This document shows, piece by piece, positions 1 to 62,255 of a stretch of 64,000 nucleotides of DNA. Both the position numbers and the translations under genes were made by a program. This DNA comes from Patescibacteria group bacterium (GTDB taxonomy: Bacteria; Patescibacteriota; Minisyncoccia; Moranbacterales; UBA2206), in the NCBI GenBank assembly GCA_030837625.1, contig JAUPKF010000003.1:1596-65595 (forward strand), read 5' to 3'. Position 1 is the first letter of the stretch; each line of letters starts with the position of its first letter. Below the pieces are notes generated by a model that did no database searches, was not told the DNA's origin, and saw only the letters and a list, made by a program, of their open reading frames with translations.

Positions 1-271
1 AAATAAAGCCGGCAAAGAATCCGGCTAACTTGCTCCTAAAGAAATCTTTTCCCAAGAAGTACACAACCGTCGCCGACAAGATAGAAAATATGCCCGGAAA
101 AATATGGGCGGCCGTTTCGGAAACTTCCCAAAAGCGGAATGCCAGCGCGGTCAGCCAGATCATAACGGGCGGTTTTTCAAACCACAGACTTCCTTTCCAA
201 TGTAAAGTCAGATACGAATTGTCCGCCAAACTTTCCTTGGCAATTTGACTGTACGTCGCCTCGTCCCCCAT
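1..271 (-). CDS. Glycosyltransferase family 39/83 (ArnT/PMT-like), N-terminal part; the gene runs off the window edge
   Basis: My own translation of the minus strand from the ATG at 271..269 gives MGDEATYSQIAKESLADNSYLTLHWKGSLWFEKPPVMIWLTALAFRFWEV... This contains the N-terminal FEKPPL(M/Y)YWL-type motif characteristic of ArnT/PMT-family glycosyltransferases. It is absent from the ORF track, presumably because it is truncated by the window edge. The track ORF 30..248 (+) is the antisense of this gene. Confidence 0.6.
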   Translation of the reverse strand, partial: MGDEATYSQIAKESLADNSYLTLHWKGSLWFEKPPVMIWLTALAFRFWEVSETAAHIFPGIFSILSATVVYFLGKDFFRSKLAGFFAGFI

Positions 272-329
272 AAAACTGCCGGAACTTTTGTAGAAAATAA
301 TAAAAAGCCCGTATACAACGAGCGCTACA

Positions 330-430
330 CCCCCACACCAATTGCAAGAATAGTATTTAAAAAACAAACGAGATCGCATACGTCCGTATTTCAACCCGTA
401 AACGTTGAGTAATCGAAACAATTGGTGTGG
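330..430. repeat. Long hairpin: 15-bp perfect inverted repeat (CCCCCACACCAATTG / CAATTGGTGTGGGGG) around a ~70-nt loop
   Basis: Exact reverse-complement arms are seen at ~330-344 and ~415-429. The hairpin lies in the intergenic region between the methyltransferase gene and the glycosyltransferase gene, both on the minus strand. Confidence 0.5.
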
Positions 431-465
431 GGGTAAATTCCGGATAAAAAAGCTGGCCTTTTTTA

Positions 466-1023
466 TCATTTGATAAGTTCCAGACCCCAGTGAAAATTAC
501 TTATCTTCAATTCCCGAATGACTGACAGCGAATTCTTTCTGGCGATCTCCGTTATTTCATTTTGAGAAACTTTTTTTGCCGCTTCCGGTCCAAAGGCGGC
601 CTCCTCGTCACTCCATTCTGCGACCAGCACTCTTCCTCCACCTTTGAGCACTCTCTTGACTTCGGCCATTATGGCGGATTTATCGTCATTCATAAAAAGC
701 ATATTGACCAGAATTACCCAGTCGCAACTGGCGGTTTCCAGCCCCGATCCATTCTTTCTTTCTAAATTAACCCTTTTAGTGATAATATTAGTCAATCCCA
801 TAATCTTGGCTTGGCTTTCCACTGATTCCAGTTTTTGCTTCAAAATATCCAAGGCGTAAACTGTTCCCCCTTGCCCTATTTTTTTCGCCAAAGGCAAAGA
901 AAAATATCCAGTGCCGCAACCGAAATCGGCCGCCACGCACCCCAAAGGAATTTCCATCCGCTCGATTATTTCCGAAGGATTGATAAACCTCGCGCCATAA
1001 CTTATTTCATTTTCTTTGGACAT
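466..1023 (-). CDS. Class I SAM-dependent methyltransferase
   Basis: The 185-aa ORF has the methyltransferase motif I ...VAADFGCGTGYFSLPLA... and a Rossmann-like layout. Confidence 0.7.
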   Translation of the reverse strand: MSKENEISYGARFINPSEIIERMEIPLGCVAADFGCGTGYFSLPLAKKIGQGGTVYALDILKQKLESVESQAKIMGLTNIITKRVNLERKNGSGLETASCDWVILVNMLFMNDDKSAIMAEVKRVLKGGGRVLVAEWSDEEAAFGPEAAKKVSQNEITEIARKNSLSVIRELKISNFHWGLELIK

Positions 1024-1118
1024 AAGATATGTTTTTATTTTTCACATTTATTCTACAACAAAACAACCAAACCGACAACGGTTGATAATATTGTAATATT
1101 CTTGTAGATTAGAGAAAT

Positions 1119-1205
1119 GGAAGAGTGGCCGAGTGGTTGAAGGCGCGACTCTCGAAAAGTCGTAAGGCAGAAATGCCTTCGTGAGTTCGAATCTCACCTC
1201 TTCCG
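1119..1205 (+). tRNA. tRNA-Ser (anticodon CGA), with a long variable arm
   Basis: Sequence is GGAAGAGTGGCCGAGTGGTTGAAGGCGCGACTCTCGAAAAGTCGTAAGGCAGAAATGCCTTCGTGAGTTCGAATCTCACCTCTTCCG. The 7-bp acceptor stem is GGAAGAG/CTCTTCC, the anticodon loop is CT-CGA-AA, there is a long extra arm, and the T-loop is GTTCGAATC. Confidence 0.85.
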
Positions 1206-1211
1206 CGATCT

Positions 1212-1880
1212 TTATAAACTAACGTACTTCACTGGCAGGACTTTGCGAAATATGCCGGCGATAAGGATTGAGTCGGATTTATGGATGAAAATCGGCTGAT
1301 GGATCGTGTTGGTTGATTTGGGAAAAAGACCAATAATTTCGTCGCTGACTTTTTTATACCGTTTGATCGTCGCCATCCCGTTGATCACTGCCACCACTAT
1401 TTTGCCTTCCAATTCTTCGCCTTTAGAGTAATCGTACTTTTCAAAAATGGCGTAATCTCCGTCGCTGATGTTTTCTTTGTCCATCGAGTCTCCCAAAGCT
1501 TTCACCGCGAAAAGCTTGGCTGAGTCGGAGCCGCGAAAAAGCGATTTGGAAATTTGCAAAAATCCGTCCACATTGTCTTCGGCGTAAGCCAGAGCTTCCC
1601 CGCAAGATGCCAAGCCGTAAACCGGCACGGAAAAAATATTTTTCAAATTAGCATAATTATCATTCTCCACGATATACAGCTTCCTGTTTTCATCGCGCTT
1701 CACCAAATCTTTTTTCTCCAACGCCTCGATCACTTGCATCACCGACTTCAAGCTGTCGCCGATTCCCCTGGCTTCCATGGCTTTTTGCAATTTGTAGCTG
1801 GTGGGATTTTTTTTATGTTCTTCAACATACTCCCGAAGAAATTCAAGGGTGCTTTGTTGCTTGGCGGTAAGTCTTTGCAT
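1212..1880 (-). CDS. lexA: LexA repressor (winged-HTH plus S24 peptidase domain)
   Basis: The 222-aa ORF has an N-terminal HTH region. The C-terminal S24 domain carries a G-D-S-M active-site Ser motif (…KALGDSMDKE…) and a Lys (…ATIKRYKK…). Confidence 0.85.
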   Translation of the reverse strand: MQRLTAKQQSTLEFLREYVEEHKKNPTSYKLQKAMEARGIGDSLKSVMQVIEALEKKDLVKRDENRKLYIVENDNYANLKNIFSVPVYGLASCGEALAYAEDNVDGFLQISKSLFRGSDSAKLFAVKALGDSMDKENISDGDYAIFEKYDYSKGEELEGKIVVAVINGMATIKRYKKVSDEIIGLFPKSTNTIHQPIFIHKSDSILIAGIFRKVLPVKYVSL

Positions 1881-1885
1881 TTTTT

Positions 1886-1995
1886 TGACCGATACGAATC
1901 TACGAATTTATTCGAATTCACAAATCTACGAATAGCTACGAATAAAAATTCGTAAATTCGCAGATTCGGATGCATTCGTTGATTCGAATCGCGTT
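1886..1995 (-). promoter_or_regulatory. Copy A of the ~110-bp repeated leader element, ending directly at the lexA start
   Basis: The reverse complement of 1886-1995 is about 95% identical to 25288-25397 and 28419-28530. The element is rich in ATTCG/TACGAA units. A TATAAT hexamer lies just upstream on the minus strand at ~2005-2010. Confidence 0.5.
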
Positions 1996-2084
1996 TATCG
2001 ATTATAATGATATCCTAGCACTGCTTCTTCATCACCGCAAGAGATGACTTATCCACAGCCCGCAAAAAAACGGGGAATCCCCGT

Positions 2085-3087: not shown

Positions 3088-3180
3088 ATAGAACATGAAA
3101 CATACAACATGAAACATAAACCATAAAAACAGTGATCTTTTTTTATGTTACGTGTTATGTGTTACGCGTTATGTGATTCA
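3088..3180. repeat. Intergenic hairpin region built from CATGAAA and CACGTAA-type tandem units
   Basis: Sequence is aacatgaaacatacaacatgaaacataaacc ... gttacgtgttatgtgttacgcgttatgtg. The arms can pair with G:U wobbles. Confidence 0.5.
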
Positions 3181-4045: not shown

Positions 4046-4112
4046 ACTTTACGAACTACGAAATAAGCAAAATACGAAACGTTGAAACACCGTTTCGTAT
4101 TTTCGTAGTTCA
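4046..4112. repeat. Perfect hairpin of TACGAA units immediately after the uvrB stop (terminator-like)
   Basis: Sequence is gaactacgaaataagcaaaatacgaaacg-ttgaaacac-cgtttcgtattttcgtagttc, then further tttcgtatttcgtaa. Confidence 0.55.
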
Positions 4113-4113
4113 T

Positions 4114-6201
4114 TTATTTCGTATTTCGTAAAACCTGTAATTTTCTTAACTCCCCAATTTCATCTCTTATAATAGCCGCGCGCTCAAACTGAAGACTGCG
4201 CGCGGCGTCTTTCATTTCTTTTTCTTTTTGCTTGATATATCCACTGATATCTTCCAAAGTTTCCAACTCGGTAAAATCGCGCGAAACTTGCGGGTTGATT
4301 TCGTGGTCGACGATCGATTGGATTTTCTTTTTTATCGTGCGCGGAGTAATTTTATGTTTCCGGTTATATTCCATCTGCAACGCGCGCCGCCTATTTGTCT
4401 CATCAATGGCTCGGCGCATCGAACCGGTTACGGAATCGGCGTAAAGAATGACTTTTCCCCGCACGTTCCGAGCCGCCCGCCCGATAGTTTGAATGAGCGA
4501 TGTTTCGCTGCGCAAAAAACCTTCCTTGTCGGCGTCGAGAATCGCTACCAGTGACACTTCCGGCAAGTCCAAGCCTTCCCGAAGAAGATTTACCCCAACC
4601 AAAACATCAAATTCCCCGCGTCTGAGCTTTTCCAGAATTCTTATCCGGTCCAAAGTATCCACACCGCTATGCAAGTATTCCGCTTTTACTTTCGACTCTT
4701 TGAGAAAATCCGAAAGATCCTCGGCCATTTTTTTGGTCAGAGTTGTAATGAGCACCCGTTCTTTGCGCGCGATTATTTCCTTGATTTCCTCCGTCACGTC
4801 CTTCACCTGTCCTCTGGTCGGCTTTATCTCCAGCTCCGGATCAATCAATCCCGTCGGCCGAATGATTTGTTCTACCACGCCCGGTGGATTTGAATTTGGG
4901 ATTTTGGATTTGGGATTTTGGATTTGGGATTTAAGAACTTCGTAATTACCCGGGGTAGCTGATACAAATATAGCTTTATTTATTTTACGCTCAAACTCAT
5001 CAAATCTTAACGGTCTGTTGTCAAACGCGCTCGGCAAACGAAAACCGTTTTCCACTAAAGAAACTTTCCGCGAATGATCGCCATTGTACATCCCATTGAG
5101 CTGGGGAACCGTCACGTGCGATTCATCGATAACTAAAAGAAAATCCTTGGCGAAATAATCAATGAGAGTATACGGCGCTTCGCCCGGCGCGCGATCAGTA
5201 AGAAAACGAGAATAGTTTTCAATGCCGTTGCAATAGCCGATTTCGCGCATCATCTCAATGTCTTGCCTGGTTCGGCGTCGCAAACGCTCCGCCTCCAAAA
5301 GTTTATTTTGTTTTTTCAAATATTCCACTCTCTCATCCAGTTCTTTTTCGATTTCACCCATCGCGCTTTCCATCACTGGTTCGGGCACCACGAAATGTTT
5401 GGCGGGATAAATGACCGCTTTTTGCAAGTTTCCCAGCTCTTCCCCTGTCAAAAAATCATACTCGACAATCTTACTGATTTTATCTCCTACCATAGATACT
5501 CGCGTTATTACTTCCCGCCCGGGCGTCATAATTTCTAAAGTCGGACCAGTCAGACGGAATTTCCCACGCAAAAGAACATCACTGCGAGCATACTGCATAT
5601 CGATTAATTTTTTCACAATTTCATCCCTGCTCATCCGTAGGGGCGGTTCATGAACCGCCCCTACGCCGTGGCTGACAGCCAATTCCAACGTGATATCCCG
5701 ATAATATTCCGGACTGCCCAAACCGTATATGCAAGAAACCGAGGCGCAAATAATCACGTCTTTTCGCGCCATCAAAGCGGCCGTGGCGGCATGGCGCAAA
5801 CGGTCGATCTCGTCGTTAATCTGCGATTCTTTCTCGATGTAAGTGTCAGTGGAAGCAATGTAGGCTTCCGGCTGATAATAGTCATAGTACGACACGAAAT
5901 ATTCCACGGCGTTTTTTGGAAAAAATGTCCGGAACTCCTGCGCCAATTGCGCCGCCAGGGTCTTGTTGGGCGCGATGACCAACGTCGGTTTTTGCGTTTT
6001 CTCAATAACATTGGCAATCGTAAAAGTCTTCCCCGACCCCGTCACGCCCAAAAGCGTCTGGAATTTTTGATTATTTTCCAAACCCTTCACCAACTGCGAA
6101 ATCGCCCTTGGCTGATCACCTTCGGGTTTGAACTTGGAATTTATTTTAAAAATATTATTTATAGTTTTCCCTGTGTTACGTGTTACGCGACCCTCCTCCA
6201 A
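4114..6201 (-). CDS. uvrB: Excinuclease ABC subunit B (UvrB)
   Basis: The 695-aa ORF has the Walker A motif [11 protein letters not shown], UvrB helicase motifs and a C-terminal UvrB/UvrC interaction region. The true start may lie a few codons downstream of 6201. An in-frame low-complexity insertion is present (see the repeat at 4884-4936). Confidence 0.95.
4884..4936. repeat. In-frame tandem repeat (GGATTTTGGATTTGG)n inside uvrB
   Basis: Sequence is ggtggatttgaatttgggattttggatttgggattttggatttgggatttaag. It encodes ...[17 protein letters not shown]... inside UvrB. Confidence 0.7.
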
Positions 6202-13194: not shown

Positions 13195-13282
13195 GTTACG
13201 AAATACGAAATTAACGAAATACGAAAGTACGAAAAGGATTGGCACGAAGGTTTCGTATTTCGTTAATTTCGTAGTTCGTAAA
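13195..13282. repeat. Hairpin of TACGAA/TTCGTA tandem units between the amidohydrolase and guaA
   Basis: Sequence is ggttacgaaatacgaaattaacgaaatacgaaagtacgaaaagg...ggtttcgtatttcgttaatttcgtagttcgtaa. Confidence 0.55.
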
Positions 13283-15103: not shown

Positions 15104-15238
15104 AATTGAATGGTTAAATTGTTGGATTGCTAAACTGCTAAAAATAAATCGGCCATTTAGCCATTTAACAATTTAACAATTTTCACTGAAGACTTTACTA
15201 ACTCCCAACACTTCGCTAATATGTCTAATATTACTTAA

Positions 15239-20337: not shown

Positions 20338-20425
20338 CTTCACGCAGCACGCAACACGCAACAAAATTTCTAAAAAACAACCCTCCAAGCGAGGGTTGTT
20401 TCATGTTTCATGTTTCATGATCTAC
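20338..20425. repeat. Bidirectional terminator region with a CATGAAA-unit hairpin between rnj and the downstream minus-strand ORF
   Basis: Sequence is cttcacgcagcacgcaacacgcaac ... ccctccaagcgagggttgtttcatgtttcatgtttcatg. The GGGTTG/CAACCC stem is followed by a T run. Confidence 0.5.
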
Positions 20426-23479: not shown

Positions 23480-23525
23480 CATTCGTACATTAGTATATTC
23501 GTATATAATTCGTAATTCGTAAAGA
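23480..23525. repeat. TTCGTA-unit repeat tract upstream of ychF
   Basis: Sequence is cattcgtacattagtatattcgtatataattcgtaattcgtaaagaaatcATG. Confidence 0.45.
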
Positions 23526-23529
23526 AATC

Positions 23530-24576: not shown

Positions 24577-24806
24577 CGCTCTTGACCAAATCAAAAGGCC
24601 GGTATATACTCAAGTTAATTTGGAAAGTCCGATATTCTCTCGCTCCGTTCCTACGGAGATAAGAGAATAACATCCGTCACCGGGACTTTCTTGGGGACGG
24701 GCTTTATTATTCGCTAAAGCAGAGCGAATGTCAGCTAATAGGAGCGAACTTGCTAATTTGGATTAGCTCTAATTCGCTAAAATTAGCTCGACTTTCGCAA
24801 GTTATT

Positions 24807-25286
24807 ATGAAATACGAACTATTCTACCTGGTTGGCGCTTCCAAGGAAGCAGAGTTGGAAAATATCCGCAAAGAAGTTTCCGCTATTGTCGCTGAAAACG
24901 GCGGCGTTTTTGAGGAAAAAGAAACGCAGGAAAAAAGAAGACTGGCCTACGAAATCAAGCATGAGACCCACGGCATTTATACCGCCCAAAGATTCGAGCT
25001 GGTCGAAGCGGAAAACCTTGCCAAAATAAACCGAAAACTCAATTTGAATGCTGGAGTTCTGCGCTTCCTGATTAGCAAAGCCGACGAACTGCCCGAACTT
25101 AGATCTAAAGAAGAGCGCATCAGCGAAGAGCAGACCAAGGAAGCTCGGACGCAAAAATTCAAGGAGGAGAAAAAAGCCGAACAAAAGAAAGCTGAAGCAG
25201 TGGAAGAAAAGAAAGAAGCGGGAGATAAAAAATCCCAACCACAAGAAGACATCGACAAAAAATTAGAGGAAATACTAAACATTTAA
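24807..25286 (+). CDS. rpsF: 30S ribosomal protein S6 with a K/E-rich C-terminal extension
   Basis: The S6 core begins at MKYELFYLV. The track ORF starts at 24750. The acidic/basic tail is ~70 aa. Confidence 0.85.
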   Translation: MKYELFYLVGASKEAELENIRKEVSAIVAENGGVFEEKETQEKRRLAYEIKHETHGIYTAQRFELVEAENLAKINRKLNLNAGVLRFLISKADELPELRSKEERISEEQTKEARTQKFKEEKKAEQKKAEAVEEKKEAGDKKSQPQEDIDKKLEEILNI

Positions 25287-25287
25287 C

Positions 25288-25397
25288 CGCGATTCGAATC
25301 AACGAATGCATCCGAATCTGCGAATTTACGAATTTTTATTCGTAGCTATTCGCGGATTCGTGAATTCGAATTAATTCGTAGATTCGTATCGGTAAAA
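25288..25397 (+). promoter_or_regulatory. Copy B of the ~110-bp repeated leader element, ending directly at the ssb start
   Basis: Sequence is ccgcgattcgaatcaacgaatgcatccgaatctgcgaatttacgaatttttattcgtagctattcgcggattcgtgaattcgaattaattcgtagattcgtatcggtaaaattATG. Confidence 0.5.
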
Positions 25398-25399
25398 TT

Positions 25400-25882
25400 A
25401 TGAATGTAAACAAAGTTCTCTTGGTCGGGCGGCTGACGCGCGACCCGGAAGTAAGAAATACTTCTTCCGGACAGACTGTCGCATCGATTTCTTTGGCCAC
25501 GGGATACACTTGGAAAGATAAAAACGGCCAGAAACAGGAACGAACGGAATTTCATAACCTGGTTCTCTGGGGACGGCTGGGAGAAATTGCCGGGCAATAC
25601 CTTATCAAAGGCCAGGAAGCTTACTTTGAAGGCCGCTTGCAAACGCAAAAATATACCGACAAAACCGGCGCCGACCGATACAAAACTGAAATTGTGGTTG
25701 AAAATATGCAGCTTGGAGCGAAGCCCCGGAGCGCTTATGACTCCGGCGGAGCTGGCGGATACAACAAGCCTGCTCCTCAACCGCAATCTCCTTCCTCTCA
25801 ACCGGAAGCTCCCGCGGAAGCTCTCCCGACCATCAATTTGGATGAGGAAGAAGAAGTGAAAATCGAAGACGTACCCTTTTAA
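25400..25882 (+). CDS. ssb: Single-stranded DNA-binding protein
   Basis: The 160-aa ORF has an OB fold (…LVGRLTRDPEVR…). A G/P/Q-rich linker leads to an acidic C-terminus ending in DVPF. Confidence 0.9.
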   Translation: MNVNKVLLVGRLTRDPEVRNTSSGQTVASISLATGYTWKDKNGQKQERTEFHNLVLWGRLGEIAGQYLIKGQEAYFEGRLQTQKYTDKTGADRYKTEIVVENMQLGAKPRSAYDSGGAGGYNKPAPQPQSPSSQPEAPAEALPTINLDEEEEVKIEDVPF

Positions 25883-25984
25883 ACATTTACGAACTACGAA
25901 ATTAACGAAATACGAAACAAAATGCTACGCCCTTTTCGTACTTTCGTATTTCGTATTGATTTCGTAATTCGTAAAACGTAAATT
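25883..25984. repeat. Hairpin of TACGAA/TTCGTA units between ssb and rpsR
   Basis: Sequence is acgaactacgaaattaacgaaatacgaaac ... cgtactttcgtatttcgtattgatttcgtaattcgtaaaacgtaa. Confidence 0.55.
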
Positions 25985-26206: not shown

Positions 26207-26209
26207 TTA

Positions 26210-26300
26210 TCCTCACGCAACACACAACACGTAACACGTAACAAAAAAAATTGTTATATAAAATGTTATGTGTTATGTGTTATGTGCTATGTGCTATGTG
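26210..26300. repeat. Hairpin of CACGTAA and GTTATGT units, partner of 27300..27397
   Basis: Sequence is cacgcaacacacaacacgtaacacgtaac-aaaaaaaa-ttgttatataaaatgttatgtgttatgtgttatgtgctatgtg. It is the reverse-complement partner of 27307-27350. Confidence 0.55.
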
Positions 26301-26305
26301 AAATA

Positions 26306-26865: not shown

Positions 26866-27318
26866 ATGACAATTATCGCGATAAATAAACGCTCCAGTTT
26901 CGATTATGAAATCCTGGAAAAATTCGAGGCCGGTTTGGTTCTTTCAGGACAGGAAACAAAATCAATCAAAACCGGACATATCAGCCTCAAGGAAAGCTTC
27001 GTAACAATCAAGGGATCGGAACTGTATTTAACTAACGCGCACATTCCTTTCTACAAACACGCCGGAAACTCCGCCGCGTACGATCCGACCCGCCCGCGGA
27101 AACTGCTCTTGCGAAAAGAAGAGATCAAAAGAATCATCGGAAAGGCTCGCATAGAAGGCTTGACATTGGTGCCGATTAGAGTGTATACTAAAAAACGCTA
27201 TTTAAAGCTAGAATTTGGCATAGCTAAAGGGAAAAAGAAGTTTGACAAACGGCAAGACATCAAGAGAAAAGAAGCTGAAAGAGGGATGAGAAGAATGCTG
27301 AAGTCACATAACACGTAA
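26866..27318 (+). CDS. smpB: SsrA-binding protein SmpB
   Basis: The 150-aa ORF has SmpB core motifs and a basic C-terminal tail. Confidence 0.9.
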   Translation: MTIIAINKRSSFDYEILEKFEAGLVLSGQETKSIKTGHISLKESFVTIKGSELYLTNAHIPFYKHAGNSAAYDPTRPRKLLLRKEEIKRIIGKARIEGLTLVPIRVYTKKRYLKLEFGIAKGKKKFDKRQDIKRKEAERGMRRMLKSHNT

Positions 27319-27397
27319 CACATAGCACATAACATTTTATATAACAAAAAAAATTATTTTTTGTTACGTGTTACGTGTTGTGTGCTACGTGACAAGC
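27300..27397. repeat. Hairpin of CACGTAA/GTTACGTG units after smpB
   Basis: Sequence is cataacacgtaacacatagcacataacattttatataacaaaaaaaattattttttgttacgtgttacgtgttgtgtgctacgtg. Confidence 0.55.
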
Positions 27398-27791: not shown

Positions 27792-27801
27792 AGAGCGAGT
27801 T

Positions 27802-27852
27802 TCCGCCATAGGCGGATCAGCCTATGGCTGACGATTCTCGCCATCTCCACAA
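27802..27852 (+). repeat. 30-nt dual-hairpin module just after the tmRNA 3' end, followed by a second copy of an 11-nt segment of the tmRNA 3' end (direct repeat)
   Basis: The module is TCCGCCataGGCGGA + TCAGCCtatGGCTGA at 27802-27831. CATCTCCACAA occurs at 27782-27792 (within the tmRNA 3' end) and again at 27842-27852. Confidence 0.6.
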
Positions 27853-28418: not shown

Positions 28419-28530
28419 CCGCGATTCGAATCAACGAATGCATCCGAATCTGCGAATTTACGAATTTTACTCTTAGCTATTCGTAGATTCGTGAATTCGA
28501 ATAAATTCGTAGATTCGGATCGGTAAAATT
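28419..28530 (+). promoter_or_regulatory. Copy C of the ~110-bp repeated leader element, ending directly at the rpmI start
   Basis: Copy C is ~95% identical to copy B. It starts right after the infC stop and ends ...cggatcggtaaaattATG. Confidence 0.5.
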
Positions 28531-28728
28531 ATGCCTAAAATTAAAACATTCAAAGCGCTTTCTAAAAAGGTAAAAATTACCAAAAAAAAGAAAGTTATCC
28601 GCAGAAAGACCAAGCAGAACCATTATAATTCCAAAGAAACCGGAGAGCAAGGCAGAAGCAAAAAAAAGGATGTTCGCCTTTTCAAGGCTGACGAGAAAAA
28701 CGTCCTGAAAGCCTTGCCATATAACTAA
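28531..28728 (+). CDS. rpmI: 50S ribosomal protein L35
   Basis: The 65-aa ORF starts MPKIKT..., has a highly basic composition and the L35 pattern. Confidence 0.9.
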   Translation: MPKIKTFKALSKKVKITKKKKVIRRKTKQNHYNSKETGEQGRSKKKDVRLFKADEKNVLKALPYN

Positions 28729-28821
28729 AATCACGTAACACGTAACACGTAACACGTAACAAATCAGTCAAATCTATTTGTTATTTATGTTATGTGATAT
28801 GTGTTATGTGTTATGTGAATC
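28725..28821. repeat. Hairpin of CACGTAA/GTTATGT units between rpmI and rplT
   Basis: Sequence is aatcacgtaacacgtaacacgtaacacgtaac-aaatcagtcaaatctatttgttatttatgttatgtgatatgtgttatgtgttatgtg. Confidence 0.55.
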
Positions 28822-29166
28822 ATGACACGAGTAAAACGCGGGGTTGCCGCTTCAAAACGCAGGAAAAATTTGTTAGAAGACGCCAAAGGATACCGCTGGA
28901 GAAGGAAGTCCACTTTTCGCGCCGCTAAACAAGCGGTGATCAAGGCCGGCAGTTACGCTCTGCGCGACAGGCGCGCCAAGAAAAGAACTATGCGACGACT
29001 CTGGATTACCCGGCTCAATACCGCCCTTAAGGAACTGGGACTGCGCTACAGCCCTTTCATAAAAACAATGGTTGAAAAGAAAATCGAAGTCGACCGCAAG
29101 GTCCTTTCCCAAATGGCCGTTGAAAATCCGAAAGTCTTCGCTAAGCTTATAGAAAGTATAAAGTAG
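28822..29166 (+). CDS. rplT: 50S ribosomal protein L20
   Basis: The 114-aa ORF starts MTRVKRGVAASKRRK... and has the L20 signature. Confidence 0.9.
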   Translation: MTRVKRGVAASKRRKNLLEDAKGYRWRRKSTFRAAKQAVIKAGSYALRDRRAKKRTMRRLWITRLNTALKELGLRYSPFIKTMVEKKIEVDRKVLSQMAVENPKVFAKLIESIK

Positions 29167-39707: not shown

Positions 39708-39711
39708 AAAT

Positions 39712-39893
39712 TTCTAATTCACCTAATTACCTAATTCACCTAATAAAATTTCAAAGACAAAATAGCAAAATAAAATGTCCAATAATAAATACAAAATTTT
39801 GAATTCGACATTGGGAATTTCATTTGGGTTTTGGTTATTTTAATTTTTAATTTTTATTAGGTGAATTAGATGAATTAGAAATTAGGTGAATTT
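39712..39893. repeat. Intergenic tract made almost entirely of simple repeats (AATTCACCTAAT units and A/T-rich units)
   Basis: Sequence is ttctaattcacctaattacctaattcacctaataaaatttc ... ttaggtgaattagatgaattagaaattaggtgaattt. The last unit supplies the C-terminal KFT codons and the stop of the aminotransferase gene. Confidence 0.65.
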
Positions 39894-46152: not shown

Positions 46153-46306
46153 AGAATTGTGATTTTGATTTTATTATTTATTAATGCCCGAGAGCTCGAC
46201 CCAACCCCCAGAAAGTTTGTAAAGTTGCAAGTTTATCAAGTTATAAAGCAAACTAGCTTTACAACTTTGCAACTTTACAACTTTATAAACTTTATAACTT
46301 TATAAA
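46153..46306. repeat. Hairpin built from AACTTT/AAAGTT tandem units
   Basis: Sequence is gaaagtttgtaaagttgcaagtttatcaagttataaag-caaactagc-tttacaactttgcaactttacaactttataaactttataactttataaac. Confidence 0.55.
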
Positions 46307-46854: not shown

Positions 46855-46941
46855 TCCTTACGAATTACGAATTGGTACGAATGTAACGAAGTACGAATCC
46901 TTTTTTCGTACATTCGTAAATGTTCGTAATTCGTAAGGATT
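46855..46941. repeat. Hairpin of TACGAA/TTCGTA units
   Basis: Sequence is ccttacgaattacgaattggtacgaatgtaacgaagtacgaatcc-ttttttcg-tacattcgtaaatgttcgtaattcgtaagg. Confidence 0.55.
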
Positions 46942-48673: not shown

Positions 48674-48767
48674 TCCGCGGTAGCTTCAGCCGTAGGCTGA
48701 TCAGCCTTTGGCTGACAATGGTAGAGCAGTTTCCGCCGTAGGCGGACCAGCCTATGGCTGGGACTGT
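48674..48767 (+). pseudogene. Decayed partial copy of tRNA-Asn (5' part through the anticodon), interrupted by two 30-nt dual-hairpin insertions
   Basis: The decayed copy reads TCCGCGGTAGCT[TCAGCCGTAGGCTGATCAGCCTTTGGCTGA]CAATGGTAGAGCAGTT[TCCGCCGTAGGCGGACCAGCCTATGGCTGG]GACTGT. The intact gene at 49034 reads TCCGCGGTAGCTCAATGGTAGAGCAGTTGACTGTTAATC.... The 5' flank tattCCGCGG is identical in both. Confidence 0.7.
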
Positions 48768-48783
48768 ACATTAAAATAAAAGG

Positions 48784-49029
48784 ATGTTTATCGTTTATAT
48801 TTTACGCAGTTTAAAAAATAAAAAAAAATACACTGGTCAAACTTCAAAAGACGTTTTCAAAAGGTTATCAGAACACAATAGAAATTGCAATAAATGGACA
48901 AAAGAAAATGGTCCATTTAAGCTGATTCATTTTGAAGAATATCCATCAAGGACAGAGGCTATAAAAAGAGAACGTTTTTTGAAGTCTGGTCAAGGCAGAA
49001 AATGGCTGGATGAAAATATTAAAAACTAA
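48784..49029 (+). CDS. GIY-YIG nuclease-family small protein (YhbQ/COG2827-like)
   Basis: The 81-aa ORF reads MFIVYILRSLKNKKKYTGQTSKDVFKRLSEHNR..., with GIY...YTG and R..EHN motifs. It sits between the partial and the intact tRNA-Asn. Confidence 0.75.
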   Translation: MFIVYILRSLKNKKKYTGQTSKDVFKRLSEHNRNCNKWTKENGPFKLIHFEEYPSRTEAIKRERFLKSGQGRKWLDENIKN

Positions 49030-57112: not shown

Positions 57113-57190
57113 GTTATTCGCTTCGCGAACCGGCACTACGAATGCCGGACATACGAATTATTTATGAATGAATATTTGCCCAAGAACAGC

Positions 57191-59073: not shown

Positions 59074-59256
59074 TTAGTTGCCCTTTCTTCTTATCGACAT
59101 TCTGCCCGATACTCGATTGGATTTTCCGACCCTGAATCCAACCGGACTTTTCTTTGGAGGAATATTGAAAACAACCTCCAATAACTCAACCGCTTCTCCA
59201 TTGCGTTCAACGAAGATTATTTCCCTGCCTGATTCTGTTTGTCTCATTTTTGTCAC
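59074..59256 (-). CDS. Small protein C of the cluster (60 aa, basic C-terminus)
   Basis: An SD AAAGGAGG lies upstream. The start may be a GTG slightly upstream of the track ATG. Confidence 0.35.
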   Translation of the reverse strand: MTKMRQTESGREIIFVERNGEAVELLEVVFNIPPKKSPVGFRVGKSNRVSGRMSIRRKGN

Positions 59257-59514
59257 CGCACTTCCTCCTTTTTAAAGAACTGCCATTGCTATTGCCAAAA
59301 AATAACAACTAAAAAGCCGGCCCAGATGGCCGACTTTGGTTTTTTGAAAATTCTACTGAATCTTACGCTTTTATTTCCACGAAACCAAAACCGGCCTTCC
59401 GGATAAACCAGGAGAAGAAATAAAAGAAGCTATAGAGGTTTTGGCTCGCTGAAATTTTCATACTAAAAGTCTATCATCCTGAAAAAATCTGTCAAGCTGG
59501 CATAAAAAATATCG

Positions 59515-59540
59515 GGCGATCGCGTGGCGATCGCCCTAGT
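59515..59540 (-). terminator. Perfect GC-rich palindrome GGGCGATCGC-gtg-GCGATCGCCC, a terminator after small ORF D
   Basis: The hairpin is followed on the minus strand by gauauuuuuuaug. Confidence 0.5.
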
Positions 59541-59547
59541 GAACTGA

Positions 59548-59718
59548 TCAATTGCCGATTTCGTCCGGACGAAATTCGCCCGAAACAACGCCAGCCGTAG
59601 CCCCGAAAGAGCTTCCTTTGGCTTCTTCCTTTGAAACCTTTTTCTCATCGGGTGTTGCGACAACAGCCTTGCAGGGCTCCCCATACTTGTAGCTTTTCGC
59701 CTCTTCTTGCCTCATCAT
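59548..59718 (-). CDS. Small protein D of the cluster (56 aa), not in the ORF track
   Basis: My own translation gives MMRQEEAKSYKYGEPCKAVVATPDEKKVSKEEAKGSSFGATAGVVSGEFRPDEIGN, with an SD AAAAGGA upstream. The track ORF 59463..59684 is in a different frame and lacks an SD. Confidence 0.4.
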   Translation of the reverse strand: MMRQEEAKSYKYGEPCKAVVATPDEKKVSKEEAKGSSFGATAGVVSGEFRPDEIGN

Positions 59719-59730
59719 CTCATCCTTTTC

Positions 59731-59916
59731 TTATCGCGTTGCTTCAACTCTGTTGCCCTCCCCTCGACAAACAGGGATGTTAAGAACTTTCTCTCTCAAT
59801 GTTCTGCACGCCTTAGTGTTTGATTTAAGGGTGCACCTAGGATTCTGCTTGCGACAACCCCATATACAATCAAGGTCATTCGCCCAATTCGTTGCCTTTT
59901 TATGAGCGTCCATCAT
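59731..59916 (-). CDS. Small Cys-rich protein E of the cluster (61 aa)
   Basis: SD ggagAAAAGGAGAatgatg. It has six Cys residues (…DCIWGCRKQNPRC…KAC…VC…). Confidence 0.45.
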   Translation of the reverse strand: MMDAHKKATNWANDLDCIWGCRKQNPRCTLKSNTKACRTLREKVLNIPVCRGEGNRVEATR

Positions 59917-60208
59917 AATTCTCCTTTTCTCCGCGTCTTTGCGCGACGTTAAAGAACTTCAAAAAGAACTACTTCCTAAAAAAACAAAATCCCGCCTGAG
60001 TTGGGCGAGTGGTTCGGCTTTGATTTTGAGAAACTTCCTATCCTCCAATCAAAACGCAAACACCCGCGCGAGACGGGATATTATTGTTCTGATTATTGTT
60101 TCGAACGTTTCTCATAATTTGAGTTTACTCCAAAAGTATTTTTTGTCAAATCCGCCCATAAAAAAGAGGCGGCCACGTGGGACCGCCTGCAAAGCAGGAA
60201 GTGGGTAG

Positions 60209-60439
60209 CTAGGTAATCAACTCCACCGCCGCCTTTCCATCTTCCCTTGGTGAATGCATCATCCCCCGTGGACAGTAATATTTAACAACTTGCCCAAGAC
60301 GGACAAACTCCTCCATTTTTTCTCCACATTCAGGACAAACATGGTCATCTTGTCGAATACTTTCGCACAAATCACCCAAGATTCCCCAGGCGCCTTCGTA
60401 TAGTTCCGCAGGATTCAAGTCATCTTCTGGAAAGTACAT
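60209..60439 (-). CDS. Small zinc-ribbon protein F (76 aa)
   Basis: SD aaAGGAGGtttttctATG. The sequence has CPEC...(17 aa)...YCPRG. Confidence 0.5.
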   Translation of the reverse strand: MYFPEDDLNPAELYEGAWGILGDLCESIRQDDHVCPECGEKMEEFVRLGQVVKYYCPRGMMHSPREDGKAAVELIT

Positions 60440-60662
60440 AGAAAAACCTCCTTTTGAAAAATTTGTTTTACGTTGAAAACAAAACAGCCACCCCGTTGGT
60501 GGTTGTTACAATGAGCTATTTTTCTACACTATTTTACGAAACTCTAAAGACAACCACCGGGTGTTGGGTAAGCAACAACAACAATAGATTGTCTAATCGG
60601 TTTCGCATAGGGAAAGTTTATCATAAAAAATAAAAAATTGTCAAACATACAATTTGAGGGCA

Positions 60663-60694
60663 GGGACGCGGAAAGGATCTTCCGCGTCCCTGTT
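60663..60694. terminator. Perfect palindrome CAGGGACGCGGAAAGGATCTTCCGCGTCCCTG (bidirectional terminator-like)
   Basis: A 14-bp stem lies immediately downstream of small ORF G on the minus strand. It is followed on the plus strand by tttgtcattt. Confidence 0.5.
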
Positions 60695-60696
60695 TG

Positions 60697-60852
60697 TCAT
60701 TTCACAACGTTACTCTTGTCTTCTTTTTCTTCATCCTCCTCTATTTTTCTTTTTTGAGAGTTCTCAAAAATCTCATCCATCTTCCTCTCCGCAAGCGCGC
60801 GAAGAGTCAATGAAGGAGTAACGCCAAAAAAACTCATCAGCTCTTTCTCCAT
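60697..60852 (-). CDS. Small protein G (51 aa), not in the ORF track
   Basis: My own translation gives MEKELMSFFGVTPSLTLRALAERKMDEIFENSQKRKIEEDEEKEDKSNVVK, with an SD AAAGGAGAAAAGGA. It starts 12 nt after the stop of H. Confidence 0.4.
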   Translation of the reverse strand: MEKELMSFFGVTPSLTLRALAERKMDEIFENSQKRKIEEDEEKEDKSNVVK

Positions 60853-60864
60853 TCCTTTTCTCCT

Positions 60865-61017
60865 TTACCCGCACCACAGATAGCGCGGGTCTCTGTCTGG
60901 TCCCGGACACTCGAGATCGGGTTTCTCTTCTTCCTCAACCCAATCTCCATAAATCTTTTCAATCGCTCCAGCCGACAGCTCGACCCGAAGCTTTTTCACT
61001 TTCTTCTCTTCGGCCAT
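60865..61017 (-). CDS. Small protein H (50 aa), not in the ORF track
   Basis: My own translation gives MAEEKKVKKLRVELSAGAIEKIYGDWVEEEEKPDLECPGPDRDPRYLWCG, with an SD gaAAGGAGGgcgggctATG. Confidence 0.4.
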   Translation of the reverse strand: MAEEKKVKKLRVELSAGAIEKIYGDWVEEEEKPDLECPGPDRDPRYLWCG

Positions 61018-61290
61018 AGCCCGCCCTCCTTTCGTATTTTTAAGAACTATTCGCTCTTATTCGCTATCATTCGCTCTGCTTTCGCGAATAAAAAACCGAC
61101 GGGGTTCCGTCGAGTTCATTTTGCTTTCAACTTTTGAAACCAAAATCAACCCGACGTCCGTCGGATAATAATGTCCATAATAATGTTATTTGACCTCATA
61201 TTCATTACAATTTTGAGATTCGTATCGAAAAAATAATAATTTTTATTGGACGAGGAGCTTCTGACGAAACATGAAACCCCCCGAGGTCTT

Positions 61291-61518
61291 CTACGGTAAC
61301 CTGATTCTTCTCTCCAGCCGCCCCTCGAAATTGGGAATCACCTGGTTTTGCAACTGATACATCCTGCTCTCAACTTTGACCTTTTCGGCGGGAGCAAGCA
61401 GCAGACTCTTAAGTCTGTGTTCGAGAATCTTTACTTCATTTTGCGAAGCCGTTATCACACTCCGCAAGTGGTTGACGTCCTTGTGTTTCTTTCTTTTCGC
61501 CTGATATTCACTTCCCAT
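61291..61518 (-). CDS. Small basic protein I (75 aa)
   Basis: SD cGGAGGAGGagttATG. It is followed on the minus strand by a terminator hairpin (CGACGGaaccCCGTCG plus a U run, at ~61095-61120). Confidence 0.45.
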   Translation of the reverse strand: MGSEYQAKRKKHKDVNHLRSVITASQNEVKILEHRLKSLLLAPAEKVKVESRMYQLQNQVIPNFEGRLERRIRLP

Positions 61519-61597
61519 AACTCCTCCTCCGTAAAAGTATGAAAAGCGAGGGGAAAGCGAAGAATCCGCTTTCCCCGCAAAAAGAGTGCGTACGAGA

Positions 61598-61831
61598 TTA
61601 GATGTCTCTCGCCATTATCGGTTCTCGCGGACCAATATGGCGAATGTAACCAGGTTTGAGAGGTGGCATTTTCAAAAGCGGCGGAAGCTTCGTTTCGCTC
61701 ACAAGTTGGGCTTCCTGCTTTTCCTGTTTCTTCTTTTTTTGCTCGTTAAGTGCTAACTCAACGAGACTTTCCGCCAGCCCCTCTTTGTGGCCGGCACCAA
61801 ACATGCCGACTTCAAAATCCATCGGTACCAT
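61598..61831 (-). CDS. Small protein J (77 aa)
   Basis: SD aagAAGGAGGttttATG. The C-terminus has a ...KLPPLLKMPPLKPGYIRHIGPREP... segment. Confidence 0.45.
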   Translation of the reverse strand: MVPMDFEVGMFGAGHKEGLAESLVELALNEQKKKKQEKQEAQLVSETKLPPLLKMPPLKPGYIRHIGPREPIMARDI

Positions 61832-61974
61832 AAAACCTCCTTCTTTAAAAGTTGGATTGTTTTAGGTGTGACATCAGCCCTTGGCTAGATTTTCAGCCCC
61901 TTTTGGGAGAGCCGTAAATCCTGGAAAGATTTCTTAAATCCTCCCAATAGACGGTAACCGTCGCCAGGAATCTG

Positions 61975-62017
61975 CATGCCGGACGATAAATAACTTTTAC
62001 TTACCCTCCGGCATGCG
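61975..62017. repeat. 10-bp perfect inverted repeat GCATGCCGGA ... TCCGGCATGC with a 23-nt loop
   Basis: It lies in the intergenic region upstream of the small-ORF cluster, on the minus strand. A degenerate AGCCcttGGCT hairpin at ~61873-61886 resembles half of the 30-nt dual-hairpin module. Confidence 0.4.
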
Positions 62018-62255
62018 GATTTTCGAGATGCCAATCAACTTTTTCTCAAAGAACTACTTTTTACAAAAACAAAACCCAGTTTTTGCTGGGGTAATTTTTT
62101 TCTATTTCTTTTGCCAAACCCCAGCGAAAAATTATCGTCCAAAGACGACGGACAATACCTTGATGGTAATGTAATTTTTCACCGAGTTTTTCATGGCTGT
62201 AGGATAGCAGAATATCCAAAATCTGTCAAATGCTCCTTGTGGATAACCGGGATCA

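What the first reader, a model, noticed from the sequence alone, without database searches (positions are those of the whole stretch)
25288..25397. A ~110-bp element present three times at about 95% identity, each ending exactly at a start codon (lexA, ssb, rpmI)
Copies lie at 1886-1995 (minus strand, lexA), 25288-25397 (ssb) and 28419-28530 (rpmI-rplT). Each begins immediately after the upstream gene's stop and ends ...cgtatcggtaaaattATG (or ...ggtcaaaaaaATG). The element is built from ATTCG/TACGAA units and contains the local palindromes ACGAAT-N4-ATTCGT and CGAATTAATTCG. Two of the three downstream genes are classic SOS genes (lexA, ssb), so it could be an operator-bearing promoter or leader. 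The third target is the L35-L20 operon, which argues instead for a generic portable promoter/5'-UTR module or a structured regulatory RNA. Near-identity of three copies in a small genome is unusual for promoters and suggests recent spread, gene conversion or strong selection.
Basis: seen in the sequence. Interest (0 to 1): 0.6.

Follow-up and report, generated by a model that had tools for sequence, protein, structure and literature searches.

The report
Hairpin-forming repeat filling gene spacers
The three near-identical 110-bp copies are one family of long hairpin-forming palindromic repeats that fill the gaps between genes in this tiny Moranbacteria (candidate phyla radiation, CPR) genome; they are not a lexA promoter or LexA binding site, but such hairpins are so common in CPR operons that the class deserves study.

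Summary
Three copies (1884-1998 minus, 25287-25399, 28419-28530) are 93-96% identical, against 0 expected by chance. Each is a ~105-nt imperfect palindrome. Its arms are built from xxxCGAAT / ATTCGxxx units, and it folds into a ~40-bp stem-loop (-41 to -46 kcal/mol, z -4.8 to -6.2).

It is not the lexA promoter or operator. A conserved promoter carrying a 17-bp candidate SOS box (2006-2022) lies upstream of the element. One relative has no element there, and four relatives have diverged or unrelated hairpins.

Homologues with the same termini occur in related Moranbacteria:
- upstream of unrelated genes;
- once in frame inside dnaG.

In the closest relative, rpsF|ssb and infC|rpmI again share one element, 100% identical to each other but only ~64% identical to the window's. 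That indicates copy-paste homogenisation within each genome.

The window holds several sister families of such hairpins. In the CPR loci sampled, about half of mid-length co-directional spacers carry a strong hairpin, including every junction of one ribosomal-protein operon.

Best reading: a REP/MITE-like palindromic repeat, co-transcribed as a stem-loop that spans from stop codon to next start codon. Any RNA-level role is inferred, not shown.

The parts
1884..1998 (-). Copy 1 of the CGAAT palindromic element (core 1889-1993). It lies in the lexA 5'UTR, between the lexA promoter and the ATG at 1880.
   Evidence: I1; RNA MFE -41.2 kcal/mol, z -5.5.
25287..25399 (+). Copy 2 (core 25288-25392). 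It makes up the whole rpsF|ssb spacer, from the TAA stop of rpsF to the ATG of ssb.
   Evidence: (-44.1 kcal/mol, z -4.8).
28419..28530 (+). Copy 3 (core 28420-28523). It makes up the whole infC|rpmI spacer. The apex is mutated (TTTTACTCTTAG), so the apical N4 palindrome is lost.
   Evidence: (-46.3 kcal/mol, z -6.2).
25288..25334 (+). Left (5') arm with five xxxCGAAT units: CGCGATTCGAATC AACGAAT GCATCCGAAT CTGCGAAT TTACGAAT. It is 100% identical in all three copies and is the best-conserved part across the family.
25339..25392 (+). Right (3') arm with six ATTCGxxx units. It has one unit more than the left arm, which gives an asymmetric internal loop (3 nt against 10 nt). All substitutions between the copies lie here or in the apex, and those at paired positions keep pairing as G.U on the sense strand.
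2006..2040 (-). Conserved lexA promoter, which is NOT part of the repeat. It has -35 TTGCGG (2040-2035), a 17-nt spacer and -10 TAGGAT (2017-2012). The candidate SOS box AGTGCTAGGATATCATT (2022-2006) overlaps the -10.
   Evidence: The same motif lies at lexA in L120/121, L124 and L128, and upstream of recA in L127.
25885..25975 (+). Sister hairpin family built from ACGAAAT units, in the ssb|rpsR spacer. Further copies lie at 13196-13282 and 4048-4131. It is conserved at the orthologous junction in two relatives (87% identity against 62% at 4-fold sites).
   Evidence: (D9, I8, I9, I11, I15).
28729..28818 (+). Sister hairpin family built from CACGTAA / TTACGTG-type heptamers, in the rpmI|rplT spacer. 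Further copies lie at 26207-26305 (rpsR|efp), 27300-27392 (smpB|tmRNA) and 3094-3176. The rpsR|efp and smpB|tmRNA sites are empty in the closest relative.
   Evidence: (D1, D5, D7, I2, I12-I14).
46855..46939 (-). Sister hairpin built from TACGAAT units (-43.7 kcal/mol). Other unit types lie at 39710-39880 (AATTCACCTAATT), 46220-46306 (AAGTTT/CAACTTT) and 15104-15185 (CCATTTAA).
   Evidence: (I10, I20).

Best explanation
The element is one family of hairpin-forming palindromic intergenic repeats, working like REP/REPIN, Correia or Rickettsia-palindromic elements. It belongs to a Candidatus Moranbacteria (Patescibacteria/CPR) genome. Each copy is a ~105-nt imperfect palindrome whose arms are arrays of 8-10-nt units with a CGAAT core. 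Copies are moved or overwritten between loci by a copy-paste process, either ectopic gene conversion or non-autonomous transposition; which one is not resolved. That keeps copies within a genome 93-100% identical while orthologous copies in sister genomes diverge. The copies sit only in transcribed spacers, in one orientation. In the transcript they should fold into a ~40-bp stem-loop that starts 0-6 nt after the upstream stop codon (or just after the lexA transcription start) and ends 7-9 nt before the next ATG. Inferred, not shown: the fold is what makes the insert tolerable or mildly useful. It brings stop and start codons together, leaves the A/U-rich Shine-Dalgarno-less start region single-stranded, and gives the flanking messages a protective or RNase III-cleavable stem. 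The element carries neither the lexA promoter nor the LexA operator. That lexA, ssb and rpmI share it reflects homogenisation among three occupied spacers, not co-regulation.
For: Palindrome and fold:
- RNA MFE is -41 to -46 kcal/mol, z -4.8 to -6.2.
- 90.7% of cells pair in seven family members, against 19-44% when partners are slid.

Mobility and turnover:
- Homologues with the same termini (CGCGATTCGAATC...GATTCGAATCGG) lie at different loci in related genomes: hisS|HIT, pilB|pilC-like, 5' of nusA-like and rnpA-like genes, and the 3' end of ruvC.
- One copy lies in frame in dnaG, adding 36 aa that solved primases lack.
- Empty sites exist. One relative's lexA has a 25-nt UTR and no element (L123). 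Another's rpsF|ssb spacer is only 30 nt (L126).
- For the sister family, rpsR|efp is 3 nt in the closest relative against 99 nt here.
- The lexA 5'UTR holds a hairpin in 5 of 6 genomes (the window plus five relatives): CGAAT-family in the window and its closest relative, three unrelated families in the others.

Concerted evolution:
- In the closest relative (SSB 89%, LexA 95% identical), rpsF|ssb and infC|rpmI share one element, identical over ~86 nt.
- That element is only 61-64% identical to the window's over the whole alignment, while 4-fold sites are 62% identical.
- The relative's hisS|HIT copy resembles the window's copies more than its own rpsF|ssb copy does (51 against 40 bits).

Not a promoter or operator.

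Transcript-level hints:
- 9 of 10 loci with co-directional neighbours have the conserved arm 5' in the sense direction. The window's opposite-strand copies follow transcription, not GC skew.
- Substitutions at paired sites give G.U on the sense strand: 7 G.U against 1 A.C in intergenic copies.

Context:
- The genome is essentially SD-less (5 of 52 starts).
- Strong hairpins occupy 44 of 89 mid-length co-directional spacers in CPR loci and 20 of 35 in Moranbacteria relatives, against 6 of 45 in other phyla.
- They occupy every junction of one S10-spc ribosomal operon.
Against: - No transposase is linked to the element, and no target-site duplication is seen. The flanks show only a frequent T(A/T)A on the left and a T on the right.
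- The one IS found near lexA in the relative has unrelated ends.
- Only three copies occur in 64 kb.
- Sister hairpins at orthologous junctions are far better conserved than 4-fold sites (87% against 62%).
- Hairpins sit at every junction of an essential ribosomal operon. Both of these points fit a host function better than a merely tolerated parasite.
- Covariation is weak because both arms are conserved: 2 double changes, no better than shuffles.
- Sense and antisense strands fold about equally well, so an RNA-level role is not demonstrated.
- No expression data were available.
Confidence: 0.6

Rival explanations
1. The hairpins are a host-selected operon punctuation system. They are functional RNA signals maintained by selection: RNase III-type processing or 3'/5' end protection, or stop-start juxtaposition for re-initiation in an SD-less genome. 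Families arise by conversion, and mobility is secondary.
For: About half of mid-length co-directional spacers in the CPR loci carry strong hairpins. Every junction of an S10-spc ribosomal operon carries one. Hairpins run from 0-6 nt after the stop to 3-9 nt before the start. A hairpin of some family sits in the lexA 5'UTR in 5 of 6 genomes despite sequence turnover. The ssb|rpsR hairpin is conserved well above neutral sites. The family shows an orientation bias and G.U-only substitutions. The stem has an asymmetric internal loop, as phage T7 RNase III sites do (the T7 comparison is from my own knowledge). RNase III genes exist in Patescibacteria loci.
Against: Junctions can be empty in close relatives without obvious compensation: rpsR|efp is 3 nt, smpB|tmRNA 9 nt and rpsF|ssb 30 nt. 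One copy sits in frame inside dnaG, which serves no punctuation purpose. There is no significant covariation and no sense/antisense difference in stability.
Confidence: 0.22
2. One reading: the element is a LexA-controlled promoter/operator, or a portable promoter, that places lexA, ssb and rpmI-rplT under common SOS control.
For: Two of the three downstream genes are SOS-type genes. The apex of the lexA and ssb copies forms CGAAT-N4-ATTCG, one base per half-site away from the Gram-positive GAAC-N4-GTTC box (the consensus is from my own knowledge).
Against: A conserved promoter with its own 17-bp palindromic box lies upstream of the element in five genomes. The same box precedes recA in a relative. 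No such box lies near ssb or rpmI. The apical palindrome is absent from the rpmI copy and from the orthologous copies in the closest relative. One relative's lexA has no element, and three have hairpins of unrelated families there. Family copies precede unrelated genes. No sense-strand sigma-70-like site lies in any copy.
Confidence: 0.03
3. The arms are iteron-like arrays of binding sites for a sequence-specific protein that recognises CGAAT units on DNA, or on the single-stranded arm. Each unit type would have its own partner protein.
For: The left arm is invariant among the three copies and is the most conserved part across the family. The core pentamer is conserved while the 3 nt between cores vary. 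Arrays of CGAAT units at this spacing occur in more than 107 places in reference genomes of many phyla, against about 1 expected by my own estimate.
Against: An 8-bp period is out of phase with B-DNA. Many different unit types coexist in one ~1-Mb-class genome that has few regulators. The arms are locked in a very stable duplex. No candidate protein was identified. Different families replace one another at the same site.
Confidence: 0.07
4. The hairpins grow in place by replication slippage of short units plus template-switch correction of quasi-palindromes. The three copies are alike only because of gene conversion among neighbouring spacers, and there is no mobility at all.
For: The arms have a tandem-unit architecture. 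Unit arrays occur without a partner arm (for example 20338-20421, 23480-23529 and 57113-57163). No target-site duplication and no transposase were found. The two copies 3 kb apart are the ones that are homogenised in both genomes.
Against: The in-frame dnaG copy and copies at many unrelated loci keep the same 13-nt termini across species. That pattern needs transfer of a whole unit into naive sites. The lexA copy is 23 kb away from the other two copies, yet 95-96% identical.
Confidence: 0.08

Closest known systems
REP/BIME elements and REPINs (REP doublets forming hairpins) of Escherichia and Pseudomonas
   Same: These are multi-copy intergenic imperfect palindromes, often inside operons. A REPIN is a ~100-nt hairpin with near-identical copies within a genome. 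When transcribed, the stem-loop can stabilise the upstream cistron. (Properties of REP/REPIN are from my own knowledge.)
   Different: No RAYT (Y1 transposase) gene was seen in the sequence available. The arms are arrays of periodic 8-nt units rather than two inverted REPs. Copy number per family is low (3 in 64 kb). Many unrelated families coexist.
Correia / NEMIS elements of Neisseria, and ERIC elements of enterobacteria
   Same: These are ~100-150-bp elements with inverted ends, inserted next to genes and co-transcribed. They fold into long hairpins that RNase III (Correia) processes, changing mRNA stability. (From my own knowledge.)
   Different: Correia elements have 26-bp terminal repeats, a TA target duplication and an IHF site. 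None of these is seen here. The sequences are unrelated.
Rickettsia palindromic elements (RPE)
   Same: These are palindromic repeats of ~100-150 bp in a reduced genome that can sit in frame inside essential genes. The dnaG copy in the relative does this, adding 36 aa.
   Different: Only one coding insertion was seen; all other copies are intergenic. There is no sequence similarity. RPEs are not built from short periodic units. (RPE properties are from my own knowledge.)
Phage T7 intercistronic RNase III processing sites
   Same: These are a family of mutually similar hairpins between cistrons of a polycistronic RNA, each with an asymmetric internal loop. (From my own knowledge.) The element has a lower stem, a 3/10-nt internal loop and an upper stem.
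   Different: Cleavage is untested here. The stems are about twice as long. The copies show presence/absence turnover, like mobile DNA.
STRR short tandemly repeated heptamers of heterocystous cyanobacteria
   Same: These are intergenic arrays of 7-nt units occurring in several families per genome. (From my own knowledge.)
   Different: STRRs are plain tandem arrays. Here the arrays are paired with their complement to form stop-to-start hairpins.
LexA operators (SOS boxes)
   Same: One copy lies between the lexA promoter and the lexA gene, and it contains short palindromes.
   Different: The palindromes are not conserved in relatives. A separate conserved 17-mer at the promoter is the better operator candidate.

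Membership tests
LexA operator / SOS box | A palindromic motif conserved upstream of lexA in related genomes. | tested here: not met
   The element is absent (L123), replaced by hairpins of unrelated families (L122, L124, L128), or diverged and lacking the apical palindrome (L120/121). Meanwhile AGTGNTANNATATCANT at the -10 is conserved.
LexA operator / SOS box | The same motif lies upstream of other SOS genes, such as recA and uvr genes. | tested here: not met
   In L127, recA carries the 17-mer and an ACGAAAT-family hairpin, not this element. CGAAT-N4-ATTCG occurs only twice in the window.
LexA operator / SOS box | LexA protein binds the motif. | not testable with these tools
   This needs EMSA or footprinting.
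Sigma-70 promoter (portable promoter) | -35 and -10 hexamers with 16-18 nt spacing, in the sense orientation, inside the element. | tested here: not met
   No sense-strand site lies in any copy. The only overlap is an antisense match at 1979-2008, in a region where 4 matches were found against 3.3 expected.
Sigma-70 promoter (portable promoter) | A transcription start lies within or just downstream of the element. | not testable with these tools
   No transcriptome data were available.
MITE of a DDE transposon | Terminal inverted repeats. | tested here: met
   The termini CGATTCGAATC / GATTCGAATCG are conserved across species.
MITE of a DDE transposon | A target-site duplication flanks the copies. 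| tested here: not met
   No consistent duplication was found in 13 copies. The left flank is usually T(A/T)A and the right flank usually T.
MITE of a DDE transposon | A parent IS has matching ends. | tested here: inconclusive
   The one IS5-like element seen (L121, 2003-2883) has unrelated ends. Whole genomes were not available.
REP / REPIN | A multi-copy intergenic imperfect palindrome that forms a hairpin. | tested here: met
REP / REPIN | An associated RAYT (Y1 transposase) gene in the genome. | not tested
   Only 64 kb of this genome and fragments of its relatives were available.
Rickettsia-palindromic-element-like behaviour | In-frame insertion in a conserved protein-coding gene. | tested here: met
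   dnaG of Moranbacteria RIFOXYA12_FULL_44_15 has a 36-aa insert that solved primases lack. This is a resemblance in behaviour, not homology.
Known RNA families (Rfam 15) | A match at or near a family's gathering score. | tested here: not met
   Only tmRNA and two tRNAs pass the thresholds. At E<=5 there are only generic miRNA-precursor-like hairpin matches far below threshold.
Intrinsic terminator | A G+C-rich stem followed by a U tract. | tested here: not met
   The stems are followed by GGTAAAATT or GGTCAAAAAA, and the terminator scan reports none at the copies. Canonical terminators do exist elsewhere, for example at 2066-2088.

The most novel reading that the evidence does not exclude
Patescibacteria (CPR) genomes use families of hairpins built from short periodic units as a general, so far undescribed punctuation of polycistronic messages. 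A ~40-bp stem spans each spacer from stop codon to next start codon. It would serve processing, end protection or re-initiation in genomes with little or no Shine-Dalgarno signal. The families are kept uniform within a genome by copy-paste and replaced quickly between genomes. The three copies in this window would be one instance of that system.
Probability: 0.25. Interest if true: 0.8.

Novelty: new variant of a known kind. Interest (0 to 1): 0.6.

Why it matters
CPR bacteria have genomes of about 1 Mb that are usually described as streamlined. Here, several families of ~100-nt palindromes occupy a large share of the intergenic spacers. That includes junctions inside the most conserved operons: rpsF-ssb-rpsR, infC-rpmI-rplT and S10-spc. 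Copies are nearly identical within a genome and turn over between sister genomes.

If these are selfish elements, they show that mobile DNA can colonise even ultra-small genomes, by adopting a fold that hides the insert between a stop and a start codon. If they are functional, they point to an unrecognised way of organising operon expression in organisms without Shine-Dalgarno-led initiation.

There are two practical consequences:
- These repeats break assemblies. The Logan contig L001 ends inside the lexA copy.
- They can mislead motif-based regulon prediction, as happened here with LexA.

The work also yields a concrete candidate SOS box for Moranbacteria.

Tried and rejected
- G.U asymmetry and sense/antisense stability were compared for 20 window hairpins and 14 family members. 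There was no consistent difference.
- RNAalifold on a MAFFT alignment of 14 members gave a register-shifted, uninformative structure, because the units are repetitive. I replaced it with a hand-set structure on 7 close members.
- An orientation test over all CGAAT arrays from all phyla gave 27:27. It is uninformative, because a palindrome carries the array on both strands.
- A sliding-window MFE scan of the window did not separate hairpins from G+C-rich coding sequence.
- The Gram-positive LexA box GAAC-N4-GTTC is under-represented and not near lexA.
- A search for a target-site duplication found none.
- The IS5-like element next to lexA in the relative was compared with the element's ends and is unrelated.
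- Exact look-ups of the window's SSB and L20 proteins found no contig on record.
- Literature searches found no description of such hairpins in CPR. The one paper on the Patescibacteria SOS network (Sanchez-Osuna et al. 2017, cited in PMC7739468) is not held, so its LexA motif could not be compared.

Full report
**1. The observation**

Reading the three places shows the same ~110-nt sequence on the minus strand at 1884-1998 and on the plus strand at 25287-25399 and 28419-28530.
- The 46-nt stretch GATTCGAATCAACGAATGCATCCGAATCTGCGAATTTACGAATTTT occurs exactly three times, with none in 100 shuffles.
- Core-to-core identity is 96.2%, 95.2% and 93.3%.
- A profile of the family finds no fourth copy in the window.
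- Pfam confirms the neighbours: LexA (1212-1880, minus), S6 and SSB (24807-25286, 25400-25882), and IF3, L35 and L20 (to 28418, 28531-28728, 28822-29166).
- The ssb and rpmI copies make up the whole spacer. They share everything from the TAA stop through TAAAATTATG.
- The lexA copy differs. The upstream gene ends ~125 nt earlier behind a canonical terminator (2066-2088). The copy follows the lexA promoter, and its similarity stops 9 nt before the ATG.

**2. Anatomy**

The element is one long imperfect palindrome.
- The 5' arm has five xxxCGAAT units.
- The apex is TTTT.
- The 3' arm has six ATTCGxxx units. The extra unit gives an asymmetric internal loop of 3 nt against 10 nt.
- As RNA it folds to -41.2, -44.1 and -46.3 kcal/mol (z -5.5, -4.8, -6.2). 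The reverse strand folds nearly as well.
- All eight variable sites among the copies lie in the apex or the 3' arm, and none in the 5' arm (Fisher p=0.006).
- The substitutions at paired positions keep pairing as G.U on the sense strand. These are CGCAG to CGTAG or CGCGG opposite CTGCG, and ATTCG to ATTTG. A further change, TCGTATCGG to TCGGATCGG, turns a T.T mismatch into T.G.

**3. Surroundings**

The window is from a Candidatus Moranbacteria genome (Patescibacteria). The closest LexA (95%) and SSB (89%) belong to MAG RIFOXYA12_FULL_44_15.
- G+C is 38-49%, and GC skew is negative across the window.
- Only 5 of 52 start codons are preceded by anything like a Shine-Dalgarno motif. Starts sit in A/T-rich stretches.
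- The element is not alone. Many other spacers hold 80-170-nt hairpins built in the same way from other short units:
  - ACGAAAT units at 25885-25975, 13196-13282 and 4048-4131;
  - CACGTAA-type units at 26207-26305, 27300-27392, 28729-28818 and 3094-3176;
  - TACGAAT units at 46855-46939;
  - other unit types at 39710-39880, 46220-46306 and 15104-15185.
- Six of the seven junctions from rpsF to rplT carry one.

**4. Is it the lexA promoter or operator?**

No.
- Upstream regions of lexA in five relatives share a conserved block: TTATCCACAG, then CTTGCRG (-35), 17 nt, and TAGAAT-like (-10). A 17-mer, AGTGNTANNATATCANT, overlaps the -10.
- In the window this block is -35 at 2040-2035, -10 at 2017-2012 and the 17-mer at 2022-2006. 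It lies upstream of the element, which therefore sits in the 5'UTR.
- The same 17-mer lies upstream of recA in a relative. It is not found near ssb or rpmI. I take it as the candidate SOS box.
- Downstream of this promoter the relatives differ:
  - one has no element and a 25-nt leader (L123);
  - the closest relative has a diverged CGAAT-family hairpin (L120/121);
  - three have hairpins of unrelated families (L122, L124, L128).
- The apical CGAAT-N4-ATTCG is missing from the rpmI copy and from the relative's orthologous copies.
- No sense-strand sigma-70-like site lies inside any copy.
- No Rfam family matches, even at E<=5.

**5. Relatives of the element**

A degenerate unit pattern found more than 107 places in reference genomes. 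Two of them are Moranbacteria copies with the same termini. A family-specific pattern found 11 metagenome contigs.

Copies with termini CGCGATTCGAATC...GATTCGAATCGG lie:
- between hisS and a HIT gene;
- between pilB-like and pilC-like genes;
- upstream of nusA-like and rnpA-like genes (these four gene names are by eye from the translations);
- at the 3' end of ruvC;
- in frame inside dnaG of RIFOXYA12_FULL_44_15. There the copy adds 36 residues just before the conserved FYDRFRDRVMFPI motif, and solved primases have 2 residues at that point.

In 9 of the 10 loci with co-directional neighbours, the conserved arm is 5' in the direction of transcription. Within the window the opposite-strand copies follow gene direction, while GC skew does not change. 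No target duplication is evident.

**6. Concerted evolution**

In the closest relative the same three sites are occupied.
- Its rpsF|ssb and infC|rpmI elements are identical to each other over ~86 nt.
- They are only 61-64% identical to the window's over the full alignment, with several indels.
- Coding DNA of the two genomes is 84% identical and 4-fold sites are 62% identical.
- The relative's hisS|HIT copy resembles the window's copies more than its own rpsF|ssb copy does (51 against 40 bits).
- One lineage has therefore overwritten these spacers from a paralogous copy.
- Sister families give clean filled/empty pairs. rpsR|efp is TAAAATATG in the relative and 99 nt here. smpB|tmRNA is 9 nt in the relative and 79 nt here.
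- rpsF|ssb is 30 nt in L126, and in L127 it holds an ACGAAAT hairpin identical to that genome's ssb|rpsR one.
- Against pure neutrality, the ssb|rpsR hairpin is 87% identical between the two genomes.

**7. How general is it?**

- In a Patescibacteria S10-spc operon (L22, S3, L16, S17, L14, L24, L5, L6, L18, S5), every co-directional junction examined holds a 70-100-nt periodic-unit hairpin. Each runs from 0-6 nt after the stop to 3-9 nt before the start, and four of them are near-identical. A Wolfebacteria locus looks the same.
- I excluded the spacer that brought each locus in. Strong hairpins (z<=-3, E<=-18 kcal/mol) then occupy:
  - 44 of 89 co-directional 50-200-nt spacers in CPR loci;
  - 20 of 35 in Moranbacteria relatives;
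  - 6 of 45 in the 'other phyla' loci.
- These loci were picked for carrying CGAAT arrays, so the figures are indicative only.
- I found no paper describing this.

**8. Interpretation**

Shown:
- a palindromic repeat family with conserved termini;
- copies at unrelated loci, and empty sites;
- one coding insertion;
- homogenisation within genomes;
- placement in transcribed spacers, with a bias to one orientation;
- no promoter or operator features.

Inferred:
- The copies move or convert by copy-paste. The mechanism is unresolved: there is no transposase and no target duplication, and the IS next to lexA in the relative is unrelated.
- The transcript folds into a stem that brings stop and start together and leaves the A/U-rich start free.
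- That stem may protect or be cut at message ends. RNase III genes exist in Patescibacteria loci.

Structure support is conservation rather than covariation. 90.7% of cells pair against 19-44% for slid partners, but there are only 2 double changes. G.U outnumbers A.C by 10:4 overall and 7:1 in intergenic copies.

**9. Verdict**

The finding is real and is correctly described as a portable leader/spacer module. The SOS and promoter readings fail. It works like REP/REPIN, Correia and RPE elements, but it meets only part of the defining features of each. It differs in its periodic-unit arms and its stop-to-start placement. The broader pattern in CPR operons is the more interesting result.

Noticed in passing
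window 2006-2022 (minus); also L120 4163-4179, L124 3862-3878, L127 11881-11897 (minus), L128 ~2831-2847: A conserved 17-mer, AGTGNTANNATATCANT, overlaps the -10 of the lexA promoter in five genomes and also lies upstream of recA in a relative. It is a candidate SOS box for Moranbacteria. It is flanked by the inverted repeat GTGAT(A)...(T)ATCAC.
   Followed up: partly
window 2048-2058 (minus strand CTGTGGATAAG); relatives L120 ~4125, L123 ~3733, L124 ~3826: A perfect DnaA-box-like TTATCCACA sits just upstream of the lexA -35 in all relatives. In the window the ~16-bp segment that carries it is inverted relative to the closest relative (CGGGCTGTGGATAAGT against ACTTATCCACAGCCCG).
   Followed up: no
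L092 / L110 / L112 (Moranbacteria RIFOXYA12_FULL_44_15 dnaG; L092 1579-1683 minus): A copy of the element family lies in frame inside the primase gene. It adds 36 aa before the FYDRFRDRVMFPI motif, as Rickettsia palindromic elements do.
   Followed up: yes
L070 420-7585 (Patescibacteria MAG JAHKAK010000097.1): This is an S10-spc ribosomal-protein operon in which every intercistronic spacer holds a 70-100-nt periodic-unit hairpin. Four are near-identical copies of a CCGTACGGAATTACAGAT-type element whose 3' end supplies an AAGGA Shine-Dalgarno-like motif.
   Followed up: partly
window, all start codons: The genome is essentially without Shine-Dalgarno sequences (5 of 52 starts). Starts are preceded by A/T-rich stretches such as AAAATTATG or AAAAAAATG.
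   Followed up: partly
window 27798-27830, 48682-48714, 48728-48760: A different 33-nt repeat (AGTTTCCGCCATAGGCGGATCAGCCTATGGCTG, two short G+C hairpins) lies directly after the tmRNA gene. It occurs twice in tandem upstream of the small ORF 48784-49029 and tRNA-Asn.
   Followed up: no
window 20338-20421; L122 3510-3640: Heptamer arrays (CACGCAA..., CATGAAA...) flank canonical intrinsic terminators on both sides, as if the periodic-unit arms extended the terminator stem.
   Followed up: no
window 59185-62335: About 3 kb has no ORF longer than 89 aa and no Rfam hit. It contains a GCGAAT-unit array (61040-61095) that is complementary to 24703-24748. It also contains a fragment resembling the element's 3' end (61209-61237, 79%).
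   Followed up: no
L001 (Logan SRR24011159 contig, 100% identical to window 1-1958 minus): An independent assembly of the same strain ends inside the lexA copy of the element, so the repeat breaks short-read assemblies.
   Followed up: yes
L121 2003-2883: An IS5-like element (DUF4096 + DDE_Tnp_1_2 ORFs) lies two genes upstream of lexA in the closest relative and is absent from the window. Its ends are unrelated to the hairpin elements.
   Followed up: partly
loci L002-L108: CGAAT-N5-CGAAT-N3-CGAAT-N3-CGAAT arrays occur in more than 107 places in reference genomes, against about 1 expected by my own estimate. Besides Patescibacteria they occur in Bacteroidota, Chloroflexota, Planctomycetota, Bifidobacterium and others, some as hairpins and some as plain tandem arrays. 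No control pattern was run.
   Followed up: partly
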